DNA of 64,000 nt from Acidimicrobiia bacterium (GTDB lineage: Bacteria > Acidobacteriota > Vicinamibacteria > Vicinamibacterales > UBA2999): positions 1,749 to 65,748 of the forward strand of contig VFYY01000002.1 of assembly GCA_016871375.1 (NCBI GenBank). Reading direction: 5' to 3'. The translations under genes were made by a program, and so were the position numbers. The notes below the pieces were generated by a model. The model saw nothing but the letters and a program-made list of their open reading frames with translations. It searched no databases and was not told the DNA's origin. Positions 12,133-32,949 of the stretch are shown piece after piece (position 1 is the stretch's first letter; every line of letters begins with the position of its first letter).

Positions 12133-13470
12133 GTGAAGAACGCGCTGCTCGTCTCGCTGCTTGCCGCCTCCTGCGTCGTCCTGTCAGTCCAGGCGCAGAA
12201 TCCCGGCGCCGTGCTCTACGAAGGGGCGCAGCTCATTACCGGCGAGGGCGGCGCGCCCGTCGAGCGCTCGGCGTTTCTCGTCGCGAACGGCCGTTTCTCG
12301 CGCGTCGGCCGCGCCGGCGAGGTGCAGGCGCCGCCGGGCGCGTCGCGCGTCAACCTCACCGGCACGACGGTGATTCCGGCGCTGGTCGATGCGCACTCGC
12401 ACATCGGCTACATGAAGGACCTCACCAGCGGTCCGCAGAACTACACGCGCGAGAACATCCTCGACCACATGCGGCGCTTCGCGTATTTCGGCGTCGCGGC
12501 CAGCCAGGCCATGGGCAGCGATTTCGGTGAGCTGCCGTTTCTGTTGCGCGAGGAATTCGCGGCAGGCGGGCACCCCGGCCTGGCGCGGTTCCTCACCGCG
12601 GGCAAAGGGTTGGCGCCGCTCGTCGAGATCGGCCCCGCGAACATGCGGCATGCCGCCTACGCGATCACGACGGTCGAAGGCGCGCGCGCGGCCGTGGAGG
12701 AGCTCTCACGCCGCCGGGTCACCCTGATCAAGACGTGGGTGGACGATCGCGGCGGCGCGATCGCGCCGCTGGCGCCGGAGCTGTACCGCGCCATCATCGC
12801 CGAGGCGCACGCGCGCGGCATGCGTGTGGCGGTCCACGCGACCGCCGCCGCACACGCGAAGGCGCTGCTCCGCGCCGGCGTCGACGTGTTCGCGCACATG
12901 ATCGTGGACGTGGACGAGGAGCTCGTCACGCTCTTCAAACAGCACCCGGACGTCGTCGTCCTTACGGCGCTGGGCGGGCCGCGCCGCATCGTGTCGGCGC
13001 CGTGGATCAGTCCGCCGCATCCGCTCATTCGTGAGACCGTGTCGCCGGCGCAAATCAGGCGGCTGCAGGATCGACTCGCGAACCAGAGCGCGCAGGCGGT
13101 GGAGCAGGGACGGAAGGAATGGGAGCGCCTGGTGCGATCGATCCGGACGCTCGCGGCCGCCGGCGTGAAGATCGGGATCGGCACGGACGGCGGAGGCCAG
13201 ACCGGGGATCAGTTCGTCGGCTGGACCATGCACACGGAGCTCGAGAACCTGGTCGATGCGGGGCTCACGCCGGCGCAGGCGCTGACGGCGGGCACGCGCG
13301 TGTCGGCCGAGGTGCTCGGCCTCCTCGACCTGGGCACGGTCGCGGCGGGCAAGAGCGCCGACTTCGTCGTCCTCGAGGCCAGTCCCCTGAGCGACATCAC
13401 CAACACGCGGCGTATTGCGCGCGTGGTCCTGCGCGGGCACGAGGTCAACCGAACGCCTGTTCAGCGATAA
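12133..13470 (+). CDS. Amidohydrolase family protein, secreted (paralog 3 of 3)
   Basis: Start is placed at the in-frame GTG (12133), giving VKNALLVSLLAASCVVLSVQA as signal peptide. Motifs VIPALVDAHSHI and ADFVVLEASPLSDITNTRRI parallel paralog 1. Confidence 0.78.
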   Translation: MKNALLVSLLAASCVVLSVQAQNPGAVLYEGAQLITGEGGAPVERSAFLVANGRFSRVGRAGEVQAPPGASRVNLTGTTVIPALVDAHSHIGYMKDLTSGPQNYTRENILDHMRRFAYFGVAASQAMGSDFGELPFLLREEFAAGGHPGLARFLTAGKGLAPLVEIGPANMRHAAYAITTVEGARAAVEELSRRRVTLIKTWVDDRGGAIAPLAPELYRAIIAEAHARGMRVAVHATAAAHAKALLRAGVDVFAHMIVDVDEELVTLFKQHPDVVVLTALGGPRRIVSAPWISPPHPLIRETVSPAQIRRLQDRLANQSAQAVEQGRKEWERLVRSIRTLAAAGVKIGIGTDGGGQTGDQFVGWTMHTELENLVDAGLTPAQALTAGTRVSAEVLGLLDLGTVAAGKSADFVVLEASPLSDITNTRRIARVVLRGHEVNRTPVQR

Positions 13471-13482
13471 ACCCGGGCTGAC

Positions 13483-13588
13483 GCGGTTTCGACTTCTTCG
13501 TAGTGTCCGGCTTTAGCCGGACCACACACGGCGGTGCCGATCAACGTGGTCCGGCTGAAGCCGGACACTACGACGTTTCAGAAACCGC
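13483..13588. repeat. 106-bp nested palindromic element (REP-B doublet inside asymmetric outer flanks), copy 1
   Basis: Layout: GCGGTTTCGACTTCTTC, then GTAGTGTCCGGCTTTAGCCGGACCAC, then ACACGGCGGTGCCGATCAAC, then GTGGTCCGGCTGAAGCCGGACACTAC, then GACGTTTCAGAAACCGC. A second copy lies at 31865..31970. Confidence 0.9.
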
Positions 13589-13589
13589 T

Positions 13590-14021
13590 CTAACGCGCCG
13601 GGCAGCTGTCGGGGAGGAGCTGGAACGACTCGACGTCGATGACGACCTGGTTGTACATCGGGTCGTTGCGGTCGCGCGGCGGCGCGCCGCCGATGCGGAC
13701 GCGGCCGCCGAAGAGGCGCACGCCGCCGGGCCCGGCGAGATCGGATTTCCGCACCAGGCCCGTGATCTCCACCATCGAGCCCTCGCGGCGCCTGATGTTC
13801 CCCAGCACGCTGCGCGGTCCTGACAACCGGAAGCGGCGGCCCGGCGCGATGCCGTTGCTGGATCTCTCGCGTCCCTGCGGTACGTCCACGATGAAGGCGC
13901 GGTCGTGCGCGCAGCCGGCAATGCGAACGCGGCTGGAATCGGAGGGGACGGGACGCTCCTCCTGCGCGTGCGGGAGCGTGGGGACGGCGACGAGCACGAG
14001 CACGGGCAGCAGCCGCCGCAT
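13590..14021 (-). CDS. Secreted hypothetical protein
   Basis: 143 aa with signal peptide MRRLLPVLVLVAVPTLPHAQ. Codon usage is consistent with neighbouring genes. No recognisable motif. Confidence 0.5.
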   Translation of the reverse strand: MRRLLPVLVLVAVPTLPHAQEERPVPSDSSRVRIAGCAHDRAFIVDVPQGRERSSNGIAPGRRFRLSGPRSVLGNIRRREGSMVEITGLVRKSDLAGPGGVRLFGGRVRIGGAPPRDRNDPMYNQVVIDVESFQLLPDSCPAR

Positions 14022-16437: not shown

Positions 16438-17643
16438 TCACCCGTCGGGTCTCGACTCTTTGTCAGCGCGTCGCCACCACAGCGCGCACGCAATGAGCCC
16501 TCCGAGAGCGATCAGGACGCGAACTCTCCAGATGCCGTTGAAAACCGTGTCGTCGACCGTGATGCCGCTCACCCGGGCGGCGTGCACGGAGTACGGCCAC
16601 CAGTCGACGAAATAGGCCGCGTCGTCCATTCCCGCCCAGGGATGCTGGGTCAGCACGGTCAGCAACCCGGCGAGCATGACCGGCGCCAGCAGCGATGACT
16701 TCTGTTCGTGTGCCCACGTTCCAACCGCGAGCAACCAGAAGGGAATCAGAAACGGCACGAGCGTCTGGGCTTCGACGCCCCCGGTCAGGGTGAACACCAG
16801 CGGCACGGCGACGAGCGCCCACATCTCGGGCTGCCGGCCGAGGAACTGGCCGATCCAACGTGGCCGCGAACAGAGGAGGATGGTTAGGCCGCCGACGACG
16901 GTGACCAGAAAATAGGCGCCGAACATCATGAACACGGGTTCGGTCCAGAGGACGACGTCCGACCGCACGCGTGAGAACCGAAGGAGGTCCCGTAAGCCGG
17001 ATGGGCCGCCGCGGGCCCACGTTTGGATCAACAGCCACACGAGCAGGCCGGGAGCAAACACGAACAACTCAGACAGGCGTCGCCGGTTCAGCCTCCAGCT
17101 CCGCCAGGTACCGAACACGGGTGAGGCGACGCCGACCGGAGACCCGAAGACCGAGGCGATCTGCGCGGCCGCAATGAACCGCGAACCTCCCGTTTCGCAT
17201 GCCGCAACTCCGAGTGTGGTCAGCGCGACGCCGAACAAGTACGGCTGCGCGGCACTGTACGCCGCAGTGCCGACAGGCCATCCAGCCAGAGTCAAGGTCA
17301 TCAGGGCGCACACCTTGACGCTGAGGGGCGCGCGTCGCGCATCGAGAATCAGAGCGGCGGCAAGAATCAGAACGAGAAATCCGACGAAGTTCACGGCCTG
17401 GAAGCTGCTGACGAGGTTCCCGGTCACGAGATAGATCGCTGTCGCCGCGAGCGGAAACGCCGGCCACAGCCGCTCGCCCAGCGTTTCTCCCCGCAGGGTG
17501 TGAGCGGTCACCATACTGGTATACATCGGTCCCCGAGGTCCGAGGCCCTCATGAAGGGGCGTGGCACCCGAATACAGCCTCAACGCGACATAGAGACTCC
17601 CTGCCGCGATGAGAAGGAGCGCGTTGGTCGCCGACCGAGTCAT
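16438..17643 (-). CDS. Polytopic membrane protein (unknown; last gene of GT2 operon)
   Basis: 401 aa with at least 10 hydrophobic helices. 4-nt start/stop overlap with the upstream ankyrin-like gene. Confidence 0.6.
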   Translation of the reverse strand: MTRSATNALLLIAAGSLYVALRLYSGATPLHEGLGPRGPMYTSMVTAHTLRGETLGERLWPAFPLAATAIYLVTGNLVSSFQAVNFVGFLVLILAAALILDARRAPLSVKVCALMTLTLAGWPVGTAAYSAAQPYLFGVALTTLGVAACETGGSRFIAAAQIASVFGSPVGVASPVFGTWRSWRLNRRRLSELFVFAPGLLVWLLIQTWARGGPSGLRDLLRFSRVRSDVVLWTEPVFMMFGAYFLVTVVGGLTILLCSRPRWIGQFLGRQPEMWALVAVPLVFTLTGGVEAQTLVPFLIPFWLLAVGTWAHEQKSSLLAPVMLAGLLTVLTQHPWAGMDDAAYFVDWWPYSVHAARVSGITVDDTVFNGIWRVRVLIALGGLIACALWWRRADKESRPDG

Positions 17644-18110: not shown

Positions 18111-19567
18111 TGGGTCCGATCGAACAGCGCGCCGATCGCTCCGAGCGACAGCTGCGGAACGCGCGGCGCGCGCAAGACGGCATCCTCGAAGAGCTGTTGC
18201 TTGATGGCGGCCTGTGGCGCATCCAGCGAAGTGTCCGTCGGCTGTTCACGAGCCCAGTCGTCGTAGTACGCCCACTCGTCGCGGACGCTCATCGCCCGCG
18301 CGCGCAGGCTGTCGTGAATCCCGACGAACCTGACCGTCCAGCCAACGGCGATCACGAGAACGAGCACCGGCGCCACGATCAGAGGCGTCACACGCGGCGA
18401 CGCCTCCGCGGCGGTCATCTCGCGCACGACCATGTACGCCGCGGCGGCATAGAAGAGGCCGGCCGGACTCATGATTACGTCCTTTTCATAGGCGGCGGCG
18501 AACAGCGCATTGGCCGGGAGCATGACGAGGAACAACACCACGAACCGGTCGGCGTCGTTGAACGCTCCAGCGCGCCACGACGAGAACCGGAGCGCGGTGT
18601 AGCGGCCGATCAGCAGGGTCGTCGCGGTGCTCGTGATGACGTTGACGACTTGCCAGGCTTCGGGAATGCCGCTCGTGAGGTTTCTGACGAACGCCCAGAC
18701 ACCGCCGCGCGGTTCGGCGAACAAGACGCAACTGATCGCGCTCACGAAATTGTACAGATGGAACGGCGCAGGATTGGACCCGAAGCGTGCCACGAGCTCG
18801 TCGGGATCGAGGGCCGAAAAACCGAAGCCGGCGCTCCGCTCGGTGAGTCCCGGCGCGCTGCCTCCGAGTACGACGAAACGTCCGACGAAATACAGCGCGA
18901 CGCAGGCCGTCAGCACGATCAGTCCATGACGCGAGACGCCTCGACAGCCGACCGCGCGGGCAGCGACAAAGAGCACCCAGACCAGCAGACCACTCTCGAT
19001 CGTCAACATTGCCGCGACGAGCACGACCGCAGCGGCGGCATCGACCAGCGCTCGCGGCCGCGCCTGGGCGAGGTTCACGGCTGCGGCGCAGCAGACGAGA
19101 ACGGTCAGGAAGTGATTGATGGGAAACCCTTCGAGTACCACGCCGGCGAAGGTGTGGATGCCAACGAGAATCGCCAGTGCCAGGGGAAGCGCGACGATGC
19201 CGGCACGGCTTTGCACGCGCAGCATTCGCACCGCGAGCAGCAGCAGCACGACGACCTGCGCCGCCTGGAAACCGCGAAACGCCAGGTGATAGTTGCCGCC
19301 CGACAGGTCGACAACGACTTTGATCAACCCGCGCCGCAGGGGGCGAAAATAGCTGCCGTTCTGGAACTCGGCGCTGACGACTTCGAGCAGCGAGCGCCCC
19401 GCGATGTTCGTGAACTCGGTGAAGGAGTCACTGAGCTGGACGGGAATCTGCAGCAGGAAGATGCTCATCAATCCTCCGACTGCCAGAGCGGACGCGTAGC
19501 CGAGTCGGCGCGGGCCCGCGGCTGGTGCGCTCTGCTTCGAATCGATGCCGGCCGGGGGCAATGGCAA
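18107..19567 (-). CDS. Large polytopic membrane protein, possible GT-C-type glycosyltransferase
   Basis: 486 aa with at least 11 TM helices. It lies directly downstream of a GT2 polyprenol-phosphate glycosyltransferase. The GT-C assignment rests on context only. Confidence 0.55.
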   Translation of the reverse strand: MPLPPAGIDSKQSAPAAGPRRLGYASALAVGGLMSIFLLQIPVQLSDSFTEFTNIAGRSLLEVVSAEFQNGSYFRPLRRGLIKVVVDLSGGNYHLAFRGFQAAQVVVLLLLAVRMLRVQSRAGIVALPLALAILVGIHTFAGVVLEGFPINHFLTVLVCCAAAVNLAQARPRALVDAAAAVVLVAAMLTIESGLLVWVLFVAARAVGCRGVSRHGLIVLTACVALYFVGRFVVLGGSAPGLTERSAGFGFSALDPDELVARFGSNPAPFHLYNFVSAISCVLFAEPRGGVWAFVRNLTSGIPEAWQVVNVITSTATTLLIGRYTALRFSSWRAGAFNDADRFVVLFLVMLPANALFAAAYEKDVIMSPAGLFYAAAAYMVVREMTAAEASPRVTPLIVAPVLVLVIAVGWTVRFVGIHDSLRARAMSVRDEWAYYDDWAREQPTDTSLDAPQAAIKQQLFEDAVLRAPRVPQLSLGAIGALFDRTQ

Positions 19568-30117: not shown

Positions 30118-31863
30118 ATGAAATTGAAGGGTGCACTCGCGGTTTCCTGCCTGCTTTGCGTCGCCCTGTCCGGCCAGGGCCGTGAGCTCGTCGCGCCGCC
30201 AACCACCGGGTGGCCGACCAACGGCGGCGACCTCTATAACCGCCGGTATTCACCGCTCACGCAGATCACGCGCGACAACGTCTCCGGGCTGAAGGCCGCG
30301 TGGCGTGCGCGCCTGAACGGATCCGGCCTGGCCGCCAAGTATTCCGGCGAAGCCACGCCCATCGTTGCCGACGGCGTGATGTACGTGGTTACCGGCGCGG
30401 ATGACGTCTTTGCGCTGAGCGTCGACACGGGCGCCACGCTGTGGACCTACACGGCGAACCTCGATCAGACGATCGACGTCGTCTGCTGCGGGTGGACGAG
30501 CCGGGGCGTGGGCCTCGGCGACGGCAGGGTGTACGTCGGCCAGCTCGACGGCAAGCTGGTCGCGCTCGATCAGCGGACGGGCACGCCGGTCTGGTCGGTG
30601 CAGGCCGAGCGGTGGGAGGAAGGCTTCAGCATCACGAGCGCGCCGCTCTATTACGACGGCCTGGTGATCACCGGCTTCGCGGGCGCCGAATACGGCATCC
30701 GCGGCCGCGTGAAGGCGTACCACGCGAAGGACGGCTCGCTGGCCTGGACGTTCTACACGGTTCCGGGACCCGGCGAGTTCGGCCACGACACGTGGCCGCG
30801 TACCAACACCGTCTGGCAGAAGGGCGGCGCGTCCGTCTGGCAGACGCCGGCCGTCGATCCCGAGCTCGGTCTCCTCTATTTCTCCACCGGCAACCCCGGC
30901 CCGGACTTCAACGGCGCCGTGCGCGCCGGCGACAACCTGTTCTCGGCGTCGATGGTGGCGGTGGACGCGAAGACCGGCAAGTACCGCTGGCACTTCCAGC
31001 AGGTGCACCACGACATCTGGGACTACGACGCGCCGAGCCCCGTGGTCCTCTTCGACATCGAGCTGAACGGCCGCCCGCGCAAGGCCATCGCGCAGCCGGG
31101 AAAGACCGGCTGGGTCTACATCCTCGACCGCACGAACGGCCGTCCGCTCATCGGCATCGAGGAGCGTCCCGTCCCGCAGGAGCCGCGCCAGCTCACCGCG
31201 CGCACGCAGCCGTACCCGGTGGGCGACGCGTTCGTGCCGCAGGCAGTCGCCATCCCGCCCGAGGGGTTCCGCGTCGTCAACCACGGACGGATCTTCACGC
31301 CGTTCTGGACCGAGCCGATTGCCGCGAAGCCGGGCCAGGGCGGCGGGGCGAACTGGCCGCCGAGCTCGTACGACCCGGGCAGCGGCTTTCTCTACGTGTG
31401 CGCGGCCGACCGTGCGGGCGTGTTCCGTGCGGACGACATCGGCCCCGAGCTGCCGCCAGAGGGTGAGCGGTATCTCGGCGGCGCGTTCGGGACGGTGCCG
31501 TTCGGCGTCACCGGCATCTTTGCGGCGCTCGACATGCGCACCAACAAGCTGGTGTGGCAGCAGCAGTGGCCGGACCGGTGTTACAGCGGCTCGACGGCGA
31601 CCGCCGGCGGCCTCGTCTTCGTCGGCCGCAGCGACGGCCGTTTCACGGCGCTCGATTCGCGGAACGGGCGGATGCTGTGGGAGTTCCAGACAGGCGCCGG
31701 CGTGAACGCGCCGGCCAGCGTCTTCGAGCACCGCGGACAGCAGTACGTCGCGGTGTACTCCGGCGGCAATCTCTTCGCTGGATCGCCGCGTGGCGACAGC
31801 GTGTGGCTGTTCTCGCTGAACGGCACGCTCGGTCCGGTCGACCGAGCGGTGCCGACGAATTAG
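30118..31863 (+). CDS. PQQ-dependent dehydrogenase, methanol/ethanol family, secreted; D-x-D (lanthanide-type) signature
   Basis: Signal peptide MKLKGALAVSCLLCVALSG. GWPTNGGDLYNRRYSPLTQITRDNVSGLKAAW. Vicinal Cys pair VCCGW. HDIWDYDAPSP. Confidence 0.85.
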   Translation: MKLKGALAVSCLLCVALSGQGRELVAPPTTGWPTNGGDLYNRRYSPLTQITRDNVSGLKAAWRARLNGSGLAAKYSGEATPIVADGVMYVVTGADDVFALSVDTGATLWTYTANLDQTIDVVCCGWTSRGVGLGDGRVYVGQLDGKLVALDQRTGTPVWSVQAERWEEGFSITSAPLYYDGLVITGFAGAEYGIRGRVKAYHAKDGSLAWTFYTVPGPGEFGHDTWPRTNTVWQKGGASVWQTPAVDPELGLLYFSTGNPGPDFNGAVRAGDNLFSASMVAVDAKTGKYRWHFQQVHHDIWDYDAPSPVVLFDIELNGRPRKAIAQPGKTGWVYILDRTNGRPLIGIEERPVPQEPRQLTARTQPYPVGDAFVPQAVAIPPEGFRVVNHGRIFTPFWTEPIAAKPGQGGGANWPPSSYDPGSGFLYVCAADRAGVFRADDIGPELPPEGERYLGGAFGTVPFGVTGIFAALDMRTNKLVWQQQWPDRCYSGSTATAGGLVFVGRSDGRFTALDSRNGRMLWEFQTGAGVNAPASVFEHRGQQYVAVYSGGNLFAGSPRGDSVWLFSLNGTLGPVDRAVPTN

Positions 31864-31864
31864 C

Positions 31865-31970
31865 GCGGTTTCGACTTCTTCGTAGTGTCCGGCTTTAGCC
31901 GGACCAAGTTGATCGGCACCGCCGTGTGTGGTCCGGCTAAAGCCGGACACTACGACGTTTCAGAAACCGC
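31865..31970. repeat. 106-bp nested palindromic element, copy 2 (core inverted relative to copy 1)
   Basis: The outer flanks are the same as in copy 1 and in the same orientation. The central 20-21 bp (AGTTGATCGGCACCGCCGTGT) is the reverse complement of the copy-1 centre. Confidence 0.9.
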
Positions 31971-31976
31971 TCTCGT

Positions 31977-32050
31977 GTGGTCCGGCTCAAGCCGGACACT
32001 ACGTATGCCGGGATGCTACGGGACGTAGTGTCCGCCTTTAGGCGGACCAC
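31977..32050. repeat. REP-B doublet, tail-to-tail, with compensatory stem change
   Basis: GTGGTCCGGCTCAAGCCGGACACTAC, then 22 nt, then GTAGTGTCCGCCTTTAGGCGGACCAC. In the second unit CCGGC/GCCGG has become CCGCC/GGCGG, which preserves pairing. Confidence 0.88.
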
Positions 32051-32052
32051 AA

Positions 32053-32949
32053 TCAGGCACGCTTCTTCTCTTCTTTCTTCTCCTCGACGATGGCGAGGAA
32101 GGCGGCGGACGCGTGAGAGCGCTCGCCGCTCTTTCGGTACACCATTCGCACGTGGCGGCGCAGGCGGATCTCCGGCATGGCGAGGGCCACGAGATCGCCG
32201 CGTGAGATCTCGGGCTCCGCGCAGCGGCGCGGCAGGAGCGCCACCCCCATCTGCAGCGCCACCGCGCGCTTGATGCCCTCGAGGCTCGGCAGCGAGATCA
32301 GGATGTTCGCGGGGATGTGATGCTGCTCGAAGAGCCGCAGCACGCGCTCGCGCACGTGCGACGGGTCGTTGTGGGCGATGACCGTCTGCCGGGCGCACTC
32401 CGACAACGTCACCTCCCGCGTGTGCGCCAGCGGGTGCGCGGGGTGCACGAGCATCACGAGCTCGTCCTGGCCAAGGACGACGGAGCCGAGCTTCGGCTCC
32501 GCCGGCTGGAACGTCAGCACGCCGAAGTCGAGGCTGCCGTGCGCGACCTCGGCGCCGATCTGCCGCGCGGGGATGCGCCGCACGTCCACGTGCACCAGCG
32601 GGTGCGCTTCGCGGAAGCGCTGGATGAGCGGCAGCACGGCGTGGACCGACGCTTCGTTGGCGCCAATCAGCACGCGCCCGCGGCGCAGGTCGCGCAGATC
32701 CTTGACGGCGGTCTCGGCCTCCTCCGAGAGGCGCAGCAGGCGGTCGGCGTAGTCGCGGAGGAGACGCCCCGCGTCGGTGAGCGTCGCGTCCTTGGTCGCG
32801 CGGTCGAACAGGCGCTCTCCGACGCTTTCCTCGAGCCGCTTGACGGCCTGGCTCACGGCCGGCTGCGTCCGGTGCAGCTTCATGGCCGCCCGGGAGAAGC
32901 TCCGCTCCGAGGCCACCTTCAGGAAGACGCGCAGCTCGCTCAATTCCAC
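32053..32949 (-). CDS. LysR family transcriptional regulator
   Basis: N-terminal wHTH MELSELRVFLKVASERSFSRAAMKLHRTQPAVSQAVKRLE followed by a LysR substrate-binding domain. Divergent from the leuA-like gene. Confidence 0.9.
   Translation of the reverse strand: MELSELRVFLKVASERSFSRAAMKLHRTQPAVSQAVKRLEESVGERLFDRATKDATLTDAGRLLRDYADRLLRLSEEAETAVKDLRDLRRGRVLIGANEASVHAVLPLIQRFREAHPLVHVDVRRIPARQIGAEVAHGSLDFGVLTFQPAEPKLGSVVLGQDELVMLVHPAHPLAHTREVTLSECARQTVIAHNDPSHVRERVLRLFEQHHIPANILISLPSLEGIKRAVALQMGVALLPRRCAEPEISRGDLVALAMPEIRLRRHVRMVYRKSGERSHASAAFLAIVEEKKEEKKRA

What the first reader, a model, noticed from the sequence alone, without database searches (positions are those of the whole stretch)
13483..13588. 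106-bp nested palindrome present twice with its ~72-bp core flipped relative to fixed asymmetric flanks
Copy 1 (13483-13588) and copy 2 (31865-31970) share identical outer flanks in the same orientation. The left flank is GCGGTTTCGACTTCTTC and the right flank is GACGTTTCAGAAACCGC.

The core is a REP-B unit, a 20-bp centre and an inverted REP-B unit. In copy 2 this core is the reverse complement of the copy-1 core:
- centre in copy 1: ACACGGCGGTGCCGATCAAC
- centre in copy 2: AGTTGATCGGCACCGCCGTGT
- only two point differences are seen across the core

This has two possible explanations. A REPIN-like core may have inserted in either orientation into the same target. Alternatively, the segment may invert by recombination between its own inverted REP arms.

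Both copies sit immediately 3' of a stop codon in convergent intergenic regions. REP-B also begins with GTAG.
Basis: seen in the sequence. Interest (0 to 1): 0.6.

Follow-up and report, generated by a model that had tools for sequence, protein, structure and literature searches.

The report
Mobile hairpin repeat with flipped-centre subfamily
The two "flipped" palindromes are copies of a 110-base selfish DNA element present well over 100 times in this uncultured freshwater bacterium; a small, young sub-family has the element's 20-base centre inverted. The inversion looks fixed, so this is ordinary repeat evolution and not a DNA switch.

Summary

**What the element is**
- The "fixed asymmetric flanks" are not a target site. 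They are the ends of the repeat itself.
- The genome holds about 150 copies of each flank. About 115 elements carry both flanks and the centre.
- The full unit is 110 bp: TA | G(C/A)GCGGTTTC … GAAACCGCTC | TA. It has a 10-bp terminal inverted repeat and a duplicated TA inside a YTAR target, usually CTAG.
- It is therefore a MITE. Its cargo is a doublet of GTAG-headed REP hairpins.
- The REP's own RAYT gene lies elsewhere in the genome, flanked by the same REP.

**The flipped centre**
- 107 copies have the centre "forward", 7 have it flipped, and 1 is a chimera.
- The flipped copies are unusually uniform (P≈0.005–0.008). This points to one inversion in a master copy that then transposed.
- Five independent metagenome assemblies show copy 1 forward and copy 2 flipped, with no difference between them.

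**Position and shorter forms**
- The position next to stop codons follows from the TA/CTAG target, which is scarce in a 69% GC genome.
- "Empty" shells exist (L+GTA+R, L+TAC+R), as do single-REP forms. They read best as a deletion series.

**Verdict:** a new member of known kinds (MITE plus REP doublet), of modest interest.

The parts
13481..13590 (+). MITE copy 1 (110 bp, centre 'forward', the majority type). Left TA duplication is degenerate (13479-13480 = TG); right TA is at 13591-13592.
   Evidence: The termini G C GCGGTTTC … GAAACCGC T C match the consensus of 107 aligned copies.
13500..13525 (+). Copy 1, left REP-B arm: GTAGTGTCCGGCTTTAGCCGGACCAC (GTAG head, 8-bp stem, TTTA loop).
13526..13545 (+). 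Copy 1 spacer, ACACGGCGGTGCCGATCAAC, in the forward orientation.
13546..13571 (-). Copy 1, right REP-B arm (inverted; loop TGAA on the + strand).
31863..31972 (+). MITE copy 2 (110 bp, centre flipped, the minority sub-family). Left TA at 31861-31862 belongs to the TAG stop 31861-31863. The right duplication is degenerate (31973-31974 = TC).
31907..31928 (-). Copy 2 spacer, the reverse complement of the family's TT-variant spacer.
31976..32051 (.). Separate REP-B doublet just right of copy 2 (arms 31976-32003 and 32024-32051), with the GTAG heads facing inward. It is not part of the MITE.
   Evidence: I3: 29-nt arms, 90% complementary.
12133..13470 (+). Amidohydrolase gene upstream of copy 1, stop TAA at 13468-13470. 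The start is uncertain: other assemblies aa, which corresponds to 12034.
13590..14021 (-). 143-aa gene with a signal-peptide-like N-terminus, convergent on copy 1. Its TAG stop is built from the MITE's last base plus the TA duplication.
   Evidence: GC3 0.91; gene called identically in 5 assemblies.
30118..31863 (+). PQQ-dependent dehydrogenase gene. Its TAG stop overlaps the left end of copy 2.
   Evidence: Pfam PQQ families.
32053..32949 (-). LysR-family regulator, convergent on copy 2.

Best explanation
Both loci are copies of one high-copy, non-autonomous transposon (a MITE) of 110 bp.

**Shown**
- The element has 10-bp terminal inverted repeats, G(C/A)GCGGTTTC.
- It inserts at TA inside YTAR (preferably CTAG) and duplicates the TA.
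- Its interior is a doublet of GTAG-headed REP hairpins around a 20-22 nt spacer.
- The same REP flanks a RAYT gene elsewhere in the genome.

**Inferred**
- The element spread as a whole by a TA-duplicating DDE-type transposase (IS630/Tc1-like). That enzyme has not been identified.
- The flipped centre arose once. The asymmetric spacer between the two perfect 25-bp arms was inverted in a consensus-like master copy, most likely by replication template switching across the hairpin. The same process keeps the two arms complementary.
- That flipped master then transposed to at least 7 sites, copy 2 among them.
- At each locus the orientation is a fixed, inherited state and not a switch.

**Consequences**
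- The position on stop codons follows from target choice. In a 69% GC genome, TA and CTAG survive mainly at TAG/TAA stops, and the element's terminal G/C rebuilds a TAG.
- The shorter forms (62, 37 and 25 bp between or including the flanks) are best read as a deletion series of the same element that keeps its termini.
For: **Copy number and forms**
- 126-152 hits to each flank and 109-147 to the spacer.
- 95 copies with a 72-bp core, plus 62-bp, 37-bp and other variants.

**Ends and target**
- the flanks of 107 copies give xTA|GC…TC|TAx. The outer positions are symmetric: left C85/T17/A3/G2, right G91/A15/C1.
- Left xTAG and right CTAx do not co-vary. The duplication is therefore TA and not CTAG.
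- ten insertions inside REP-B loops. Removing the element and one TA restores the canonical loop GGCTT-TA-GCC.

**Orientation census**
- 107 forward, 7 flipped, 1 L…L chimera. The spacer is never seen without at least one MITE flank.
- flipped copies differ from the re-flipped consensus by 0.57 on average, against 1.73 for forward copies (P=0.008). Mean pairwise difference is 1.05 against 3.09 (P=0.005). Three of the seven are identical, and two share a TTCA loop variant.
- in 9 of 12 copies with variants in both loops, the two loops are exact complements. This indicates arm-to-arm templating.

**Stability**
- five independent assemblies (ENA ERZ27247963; JGI 3300020197, 3300020198, 3300020200, 3300020214) carry both loci. 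The sequence is identical in all, with copy 1 forward and copy 2 flipped.

**RAYT**
- a Y1_Tnp/RAYT gene at C59:16569-17075. It is flanked by five tandem REP-B units and an inverted REP-B on one side, and by a further inverted REP-B on the other.

**Stop codons and target scarcity**
- in 76 of 130 copies an end forms the TAG stop of a long, high-GC3 ORF. CTAG occurs 891 times against 12,119 expected.

**Literature**
- Loop inversion by template switching: PMC8794818.
- Compensatory arm changes in REPINs: PMC3116915.
Against: - No autonomous element with matching termini is present in the assembly, which is 92% complete.
- The two IS630-like genes present have unrelated inverted repeats, TA|GTACCCCG…. 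The transposase assignment is therefore inferred from the TA duplication and the target alone.
- A single origin for the flipped copies rests on only 7 short sequences. Several independent flips of young consensus copies would look much the same.
- The template-switch mechanism is inferred and not observed.
- Consensus assemblies cannot exclude low-frequency switching.
- The step from the 62/106-bp form to the 37-bp form uses only 1 bp of microhomology. It always leaves exactly GTA or TAC, which is more precise than plain slippage would predict.
Confidence: 0.65

Rival explanations
1. RAYT-driven cargo mobility. The outer 41-bp shell is the MITE proper. The REP, or the REP doublet, is cut out and put back as single-stranded DNA by the REP-B RAYT at the GTAG inside the shell, on either strand. 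This would produce the forward and flipped cores and also the GTA and TAC scars.
For: - Empty shells exist in two mirror-image forms, L+GTA+R (3 copies) and L+TAC+R (5 copies), with exactly the same end points. Single-REP shells exist too (4 copies).
- On the top strand, the right junction of the TAC form falls at C|TAC. The GTA form is the same event on the bottom strand.
- C|T, including C|TAC of inverted REPs, is the cleavage site shown in vitro for RAYTs (PMC3333891; PMC8266576).
- Asymmetric REPIN excisions that leave a few REP bases behind were seen in Pseudomonas fluorescens (PMC3116915).
- A REP-B RAYT is present.
- About 25 copies are truncated exactly at GTAG or CTAC.
Against: - Orientation is 107:7 and not near 1:1.
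- The spacer never occurs outside the shell.
- The other junction of each scar would need a cut at C|G, which is not a known RAYT site.
- The short forms keep the MITE termini, so two founder deletions followed by transposition explain the 8 copies without any RAYT.
- The homogeneity of the flipped copies fits a single event.
Confidence: 0.15
2. Recurrent or ongoing local inversion. At each locus the spacer flips by recombination or strand switching between the element's own inverted REP arms, either as repeated independent mutations or as an active reversible switch.
For: - Perfect 25-26 bp inverted arms flank the spacer.
- The cruciform or hairpin is very stable.
- Arm-to-arm templating is evidently active in the family.
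- One L…L chimera (C195) shows that REP arms do recombine.
Against: - The orientation at both loci is the same in five independent assemblies, and contigs run through the elements without breaks.
- Flipped copies are more uniform than random forward copies (P≈0.005-0.008), and all derive from one spacer variant.
- No recombinase gene lies next to either locus.
- A 20-nt spacer is too short for duplex recombination between its arms. This point is inference.
Confidence: 0.15
3. Assembly or binning artefact: the flipped copies are mis-assemblies of a palindromic repeat in a short-read metagenome bin.
For: - The genome is a 295-contig draft.
- Palindromic repeats of about 110 bp are hard for de Bruijn assemblers.
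Against: - Five separate assemblies, made with at least two pipelines (ENA k141 contigs and JGI), reproduce both loci base for base.
- Seven flipped copies lie in seven unique contexts.
Confidence: 0.03

Closest known systems
REPINs (REP doublets forming hairpins) with their RAYT, Pseudomonas fluorescens SBW25 (Bertels & Rainey 2011, PMC3116915)
   Same: - Two inverted GTAG-headed REPs around a short spacer fold into one long hairpin.
- Complementary changes occur in both arms.
- A RAYT gene flanked by the same REP is present in the genome.
   Different: - Here the doublet is enclosed in a shell with terminal inverted repeats and a TA target duplication.
- The spacer is never found outside that shell.
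- Amplification to more than 100 copies is attributable to the shell and not to the RAYT.
- REPINs make no target duplication.
IS630/Tc1-mariner-type bacterial MITEs, e.g. Correia/NEMIS elements of Neisseria and RUP of Streptococcus pneumoniae (family features from general knowledge; listed as MITEs in PMC3733652)
   Same: - About 100-150 bp, with terminal inverted repeats and no coding capacity.
- TA duplication, with a preference for TA inside CTAG.
- Folds into a hairpin, is high-copy, and lies at gene ends.
   Different: - No autonomous partner with matching ends was found.
- The resident IS630-like elements have unrelated inverted repeats.
- The interior is a REP doublet belonging to a different (HUH/Y1) mobility system.
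REP dimers nested inside longer palindromes: Anabaena variabilis GTAG-15 and Halothiobacillus neapolitanus CGTC-1 (Di Nocera et al. [quoted passage not shown]
   Same: A REP dimer sits regularly inside a conserved outer palindrome of about 40-50 bp.
   Different: - Those cases were noted but not analysed, and in both species no outer palindrome was found without a REP.
- Here empty shells exist, the TA duplication and YTAR target are demonstrated, and a flipped sub-family is present.
Hairpin-loop inversions by replication template switching (Mönttinen & Löytynoja 2022, PMC8794818). Small inversions in chloroplast hairpins are a further example, from general knowledge.
   Same: The sequence between two perfect inverted arms is replaced by its reverse complement with no other change. 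The same process homogenises the arms.
   Different: Here the inverted loop is 20-22 nt and sits inside a mobile element. The inverted state was then copied to several loci.
Invertible DNA switches (invertons such as fimS or the hin segment; general knowledge)
   Same: A segment bounded by inverted repeats is found in both orientations.
   Different: - No recombinase lies nearby.
- The spacer is only about 20 bp.
- Each locus has one orientation in five samples.
- The two orientations are seen at different loci, not at one locus.

Membership tests
MITE of a TA-duplicating DDE transposon (IS630/Tc1-like) | Terminal inverted repeats | tested here: met
   The left end GCGCGGTTTC and the reverse complement of the right end GAGCGGTTTC match at 9 of 10 positions. 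They are conserved in more than 100 copies.
MITE of a TA-duplicating DDE transposon (IS630/Tc1-like) | TA target-site duplication, with a preference for CTAG | tested here: met
   - The outer flank positions are symmetric (C85/T17 on the left, G91/A15 on the right) and do not co-vary.
- Ten insertions in REP loops restore GGCTT-TA-GCC when the element and one TA are removed.
MITE of a TA-duplicating DDE transposon (IS630/Tc1-like) | Small, non-coding, many dispersed copies | tested here: met
   110 bp; about 115 copies with both flanks, plus partial copies, spread over most contigs.
MITE of a TA-duplicating DDE transposon (IS630/Tc1-like) | Autonomous partner with the same ends that encodes the transposase | tested here: inconclusive
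   - Two DDE_3 genes are present, but their ends are TA|GTACCCCG….
- No other sequence bears the MITE termini.
- The assembly is 92% complete and fragmented, so a partner could be missing.
REPIN (RAYT-dependent REP doublet) | Two REPs in inverted orientation with a spacer, folding into a hairpin | tested here: met
REPIN (RAYT-dependent REP doublet) | Cognate RAYT gene flanked by the same REP | tested here: met
   A PF01797 hit at C59:16692-16973 (37 bits, cut-off 23) with HLH and Y motifs. REP-B arrays lie on both sides.
REPIN (RAYT-dependent REP doublet) | The doublet itself is the dispersed unit, with no inverted-repeat shell and no target duplication | tested here: not met
   Every genuine occurrence of the spacer has at least one MITE flank; the 15 hits with neither flank read as unrelated, probably coding, sequence (fuzzy matches, by inspection). 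Complete copies have the TA duplication.
Invertible DNA switch (inverton) | Both orientations coexist at one locus within a population | tested here: not met
   Five assemblies per locus all show the same orientation. This holds at consensus level only.
Invertible DNA switch (inverton) | Dedicated recombinase nearby | tested here: not met
   The neighbouring genes are an amidohydrolase, a 143-aa gene with a signal-peptide-like N-terminus, a PQQ dehydrogenase and a LysR regulator.

The most novel reading that the evidence does not exclude
The 110-bp element may be acted on by two unrelated mobility systems at once.
- A DDE-type transposase moves the shell, producing the TA duplication.
- The genome's REP-B RAYT cuts the REP cargo out of the shell and puts it back as single-stranded DNA at the internal GTAG, on either strand.

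On this reading the mirror-image GTA and TAC "scars", the single-REP form and the flipped core are natural footprints of RAYT excision and re-insertion at nucleotide resolution, with the cut at C|TAC. That is in-vivo evidence the REP field still largely lacks.
Probability: 0.15. Interest if true: 0.6.

Novelty: new member of a known kind. Interest (0 to 1): 0.3.

Why it matters
- **It removes an apparent DNA switch.** The two orientations belong to two sub-families of one mobile repeat, not to two states of a locus.
- **It is a caveat for REPIN/RAYT population studies.** A REP doublet can be amplified more than 100-fold by riding inside a TA-duplicating MITE. Doublet copy number therefore does not always reflect RAYT activity.
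- **It gives a mechanistic reading of an older remark.** Di Nocera et al. (2013) noted that some REP dimers sit inside longer palindromes. Here the outer palindrome has the hallmarks of a MITE.
- **It explains the position on stop codons.** In a high-GC genome such elements land on stop codons, and their end base rebuilds a TAG.
- **It offers defined substrates for testing RAYT cleavage.** The GTA and TAC empty shells are cheap test material.

Tried and rejected
- **Exact empty site L+R.** Searched with up to 2 mismatches: 0 hits. The empty forms carry 3 extra bases.
- **Metagenome pattern scan for copy 2 with a forward centre**, and for the copy-1 junction in any state. Both returned nothing. 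Since even the known state of copy 1 was not found, these scans evidently do not hold the relevant records, and the negative is uninformative.
- **Exact-protein look-ups with the amidohydrolase** (493-aa and 445-aa starts) failed. The 143-aa neighbour worked.
- **Loop asymmetry as a marker for inversion end points.** I tried to decide whether the whole 72-bp core or only the spacer is inverted. Both loops vary about equally, so there is no resolution.
- **Resident IS630-like elements as the mobilising partner.** Rejected on inverted-repeat mismatch.
- **Rfam.** Only sub-threshold generic hairpin hits, for example a miRNA model at 35.7 bits against a cut-off of 60.
- **Related genomes.** 194 genomes of the same family contain no form of the MITE, so no orthologous empty or alternative sites were available. 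REP-B itself is widespread in the family.

Full report
**1. The observation**

The sequence at 13483-13588 and 31865-31970 is as described.
- Both copies start with GCGGTTTCGACTTCTTC and end with GACGTTTCAGAAACCGC.
- The 72 bp between the flanks differ at 16 positions when compared directly and at 2 when one copy is reverse-complemented.
- The arms are 43-45 nt inverted repeats with a 20-22 nt spacer.
- As ssDNA both versions fold to about -46 kcal/mol (z -9.7 and -11.6).
- The two REP arms are mirror images of each other. Only the spacer visibly changes, so the inverted segment may be anywhere between 20 and 72 bp.

**2. It is a high-copy family, and the flanks belong to it**

The window lies in a 4.22-Mb, 295-contig, 68.9% GC draft genome.
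- Each flank occurs about 126-152 times and the spacer 109-147 times. The string L+R with nothing between occurs 0 times.
- Pairing the flanks gives 95 copies with a 72-bp core, plus a spectrum of variants.

Aligning 107 copies with their surroundings shows that conservation continues two bases further on each side and then stops.
- The pattern is xTA|G-C-GCGGTTTC … GAAACCGC-T-C|TAx.
- The outermost positions are symmetric: left C85/T17/A3/G2, right G91/A15/C1.
- The two sides vary independently. The duplicated target is therefore TA within YTAR, most often CTAG.
- The element proper is 110 bp with a 9/10 terminal inverted repeat.

Direct proof of the TA duplication comes from ten copies inserted into the loops of other REP-B hairpins. 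Deleting the element and one TA restores the canonical loop GGCTT-TA-GCC.

These are the hallmarks of a MITE moved by a TA-duplicating DDE transposase of the IS630/Tc1 type.
- Two IS630-like genes are present. They are themselves bounded by CTAG/TA, but their inverted repeats (TA|GTACCCCG…) do not resemble the MITE's.
- No other sequence in the assembly carries the MITE ends.
- The partner transposase therefore remains unidentified.

**3. The cargo**

The interior is a doublet of a GTAG-headed REP (GTAGTGTCCGGC-TTTA-GCCGGAC…).
- The same REP flanks a Y1/HUH transposase gene on another contig, C59:16569-17075. It has a Pfam Y1_Tnp hit of 37 bits and visible HLH and Y motifs.
- That gene has five tandem REP units and an inverted REP on one side, and a further inverted REP on the other. 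This is a typical RAYT/REPtron arrangement.
- The bare REP is 100% conserved in many genera of the same family. The MITE in any form is absent from 194 other genomes of that family.
- Three forward copies occur in a different MAG, GenBank VGVM01, titled "Gemmatimonadetes bacterium". In the one region that aligns it is only about 73% identical to this genome.
- REP dimers sitting inside longer palindromes were noted in passing for Anabaena variabilis and Halothiobacillus neapolitanus by Di Nocera et al. 2013 (PMC3733652). The composite architecture therefore has precedent.

**4. How many copies are flipped, and what that means**

I classified every occurrence of the spacer by what lies on each side.

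| Class | Copies |
|---|---|
| Forward | 107 |
| Flipped | 7 |
| L at both ends (C195) | 1 |
| Only one MITE flank | about 25 |
| Genuine occurrences with no flank | 0 |

A further 15 fuzzy hits had neither flank; all read as unrelated, probably coding, sequence.

The one-flank copies break exactly at GTAG or CTAC.

- All flipped copies derive from one spacer variant, TT/ACAC.
- Re-flipped, they differ from the family consensus by 0.57 positions on average, against 1.73 for forward copies (permutation P=0.008).
- Their mean pairwise difference is 1.05 against 3.09 (P=0.005).
- Three are identical, and two share a private TTCA loop.
- The simplest reading is one inversion in a consensus-like master copy, followed by transposition of the flipped element to at least seven sites, each with its own TA-flanked context.

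**5. Is it switching?**

- The exact PQQ-dehydrogenase protein next to copy 2 and the exact 143-aa protein next to copy 1 are each found on contigs from five samples (one ENA, four JGI).
- All five show copy 2 flipped and copy 1 forward, base-for-base identical to the window. The contigs run straight through the elements.
- This rules out a major polymorphism. It does not rule out rare switching.
- No recombinase lies next to either locus.

**6. Likely mechanism of the flip**

- In the forward copies the two REP loops co-vary. Of 12 copies with variants in both loops, 9 have exactly complementary loops: TGTA/TACA, TTGA/TCAA, GTTA/TAAC.
- One arm is therefore repeatedly copied from the other.
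- Replication template switching across a hairpin does exactly this. It is also the documented route to clean loop inversions (PMC8794818).
- Compensatory arm changes are also described for REPINs (PMC3116915).
- I therefore infer, but have not shown, that the flip was a template-switch event.

**7. The shorter forms**

All shorter forms keep the MITE ends and the TA/CTAG flanks.

| Form | Structure | Copies |
|---|---|---|
| 62 bp | L + one 28-bp GTAG…CTAC palindrome + R | 4 |
| 37 bp | L+GTA+R | 3 |
| 37 bp | L+TAC+R | 5 |
| 25 bp | GCGGTTTCGACGTTTCAGAAACCGC | 4 (one with a substitution) |

- 106→62 is a 44-bp deletion between the 18-bp direct repeats that a palindromic REP doublet necessarily contains (D1).
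- 37→25 is a 12-bp deletion between GAC repeats.
- The step to 37 bp has only 1 bp of microhomology and always leaves GTA or TAC. These two are reverse complements, which means the same event on opposite strands.
- One junction of that event coincides with C|TAC, the site at which RAYTs cut in vitro (PMC3333891, PMC8266576). The other junction would need a cut at C|G, which is not a known site.
- Since the short forms keep transposable ends, two founder deletions followed by transposition suffice. I keep RAYT-mediated excision and re-insertion as a 15% rival; it is also the most novel reading the evidence allows.

**8. Why next to stop codons**

- CTAG occurs 891 times against 12,119 expected from base composition, and TA occurs at less than half its expected frequency.
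- TAG and TAA stop codons are among the few places that offer the target.
- In 76 of 130 copies, a TA duplication together with the element's terminal G or C forms the TAG stop of a long, high-GC3 ORF. In 11 copies this happens at both ends.
- Copies 1 and 2 are ordinary examples.

**9. Verdict**

- The premise of "two copies at a common target" is wrong, and active inversion is not supported.
- The element is a new member of known kinds: a MITE with a REP-doublet cargo and a flipped sub-family.
- Earlier scan notes on this genome record another copy of the same nested palindrome and a second REP/RAYT system in the window. One also calls the organism an acidobacterium. I did not verify the taxonomy.

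Noticed in passing
genome contigs C24:~31205, C64:~21422, C168:~8672, C179:~139, C208:~6055, C7:~45252, C92/C130 (outside the window): A second repeated element with the terminal sequence CACTACTTTGTCAGA(T/A)TC… is inserted into REP-B loops and at MITE ends, at TTA/TAA within TTAG/CTAA. It is probably an IS that also homes to YTAR. Many contigs end inside it.
   Followed up: no
genome contig C195:1412-1527: A chimeric copy carries the left-type flank at both ends (L-REP-spacer-REP-L'). This is what recombination between REP arms of two copies, meaning a chromosomal inversion, would produce. The reciprocal R…R copy was not found.
   Followed up: partly
about 25 loci, e.g. C87:953, C114:8220, C152:9532 (R flank only); C3:7517, C14:6816, C47:5723, C148:698, C2:1637 (L flank only): Half-elements in which the MITE sequence is replaced by unrelated DNA exactly at the outer GTAG or CTAC of the REP. 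They fit either REP-REP recombination with stand-alone REPs or cleavage at the REP boundary.
   Followed up: no
C192:4189-4340, C246:142-210, C111:10181-10250, C72:12044-12110: Tandem 35-bp arrays of the right half-element (…CTAAAGCCGGACACTACGACGTTTCAGAAACCGCT…). Several copies also carry 10-11 bp internal duplications of the REP stem-loop (GGCTTTAGCCnGGCTTTAGCC), giving 82-94 bp cores.
   Followed up: no
whole genome: CTAG is about 13-fold under-represented (891 observed, 12,119 expected). Roughly a quarter of all CTAGs are the ends of this MITE.
   Followed up: partly
L007-L009 (GenBank VGVM01000052, VGVM01000124, VGVM01000112): Three near-identical forward copies sit in a MAG that aligns to this genome in only one region, at about 73% identity. 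This means either horizontal spread of the MITE or mis-binned contigs.
   Followed up: partly
genome contig C29:15488-16955: An intact IS630-like element (392-aa stop-to-stop frame, 23-bp inverted repeats GTACCCCGTCGCAGGGATTTTGA, flanked by cTA…TAg) lies about 500 bp from a MITE copy at 17474-17583 and near a nested pair at 18406-18546.
   Followed up: partly
window 31973-31974 and 13479-13480: Both window copies have one degenerate TA duplication: TC to the right of copy 2 and TG to the left of copy 1. Copy 2 directly abuts a separate REP-B doublet, so its right junction may have been remodelled.
   Followed up: no
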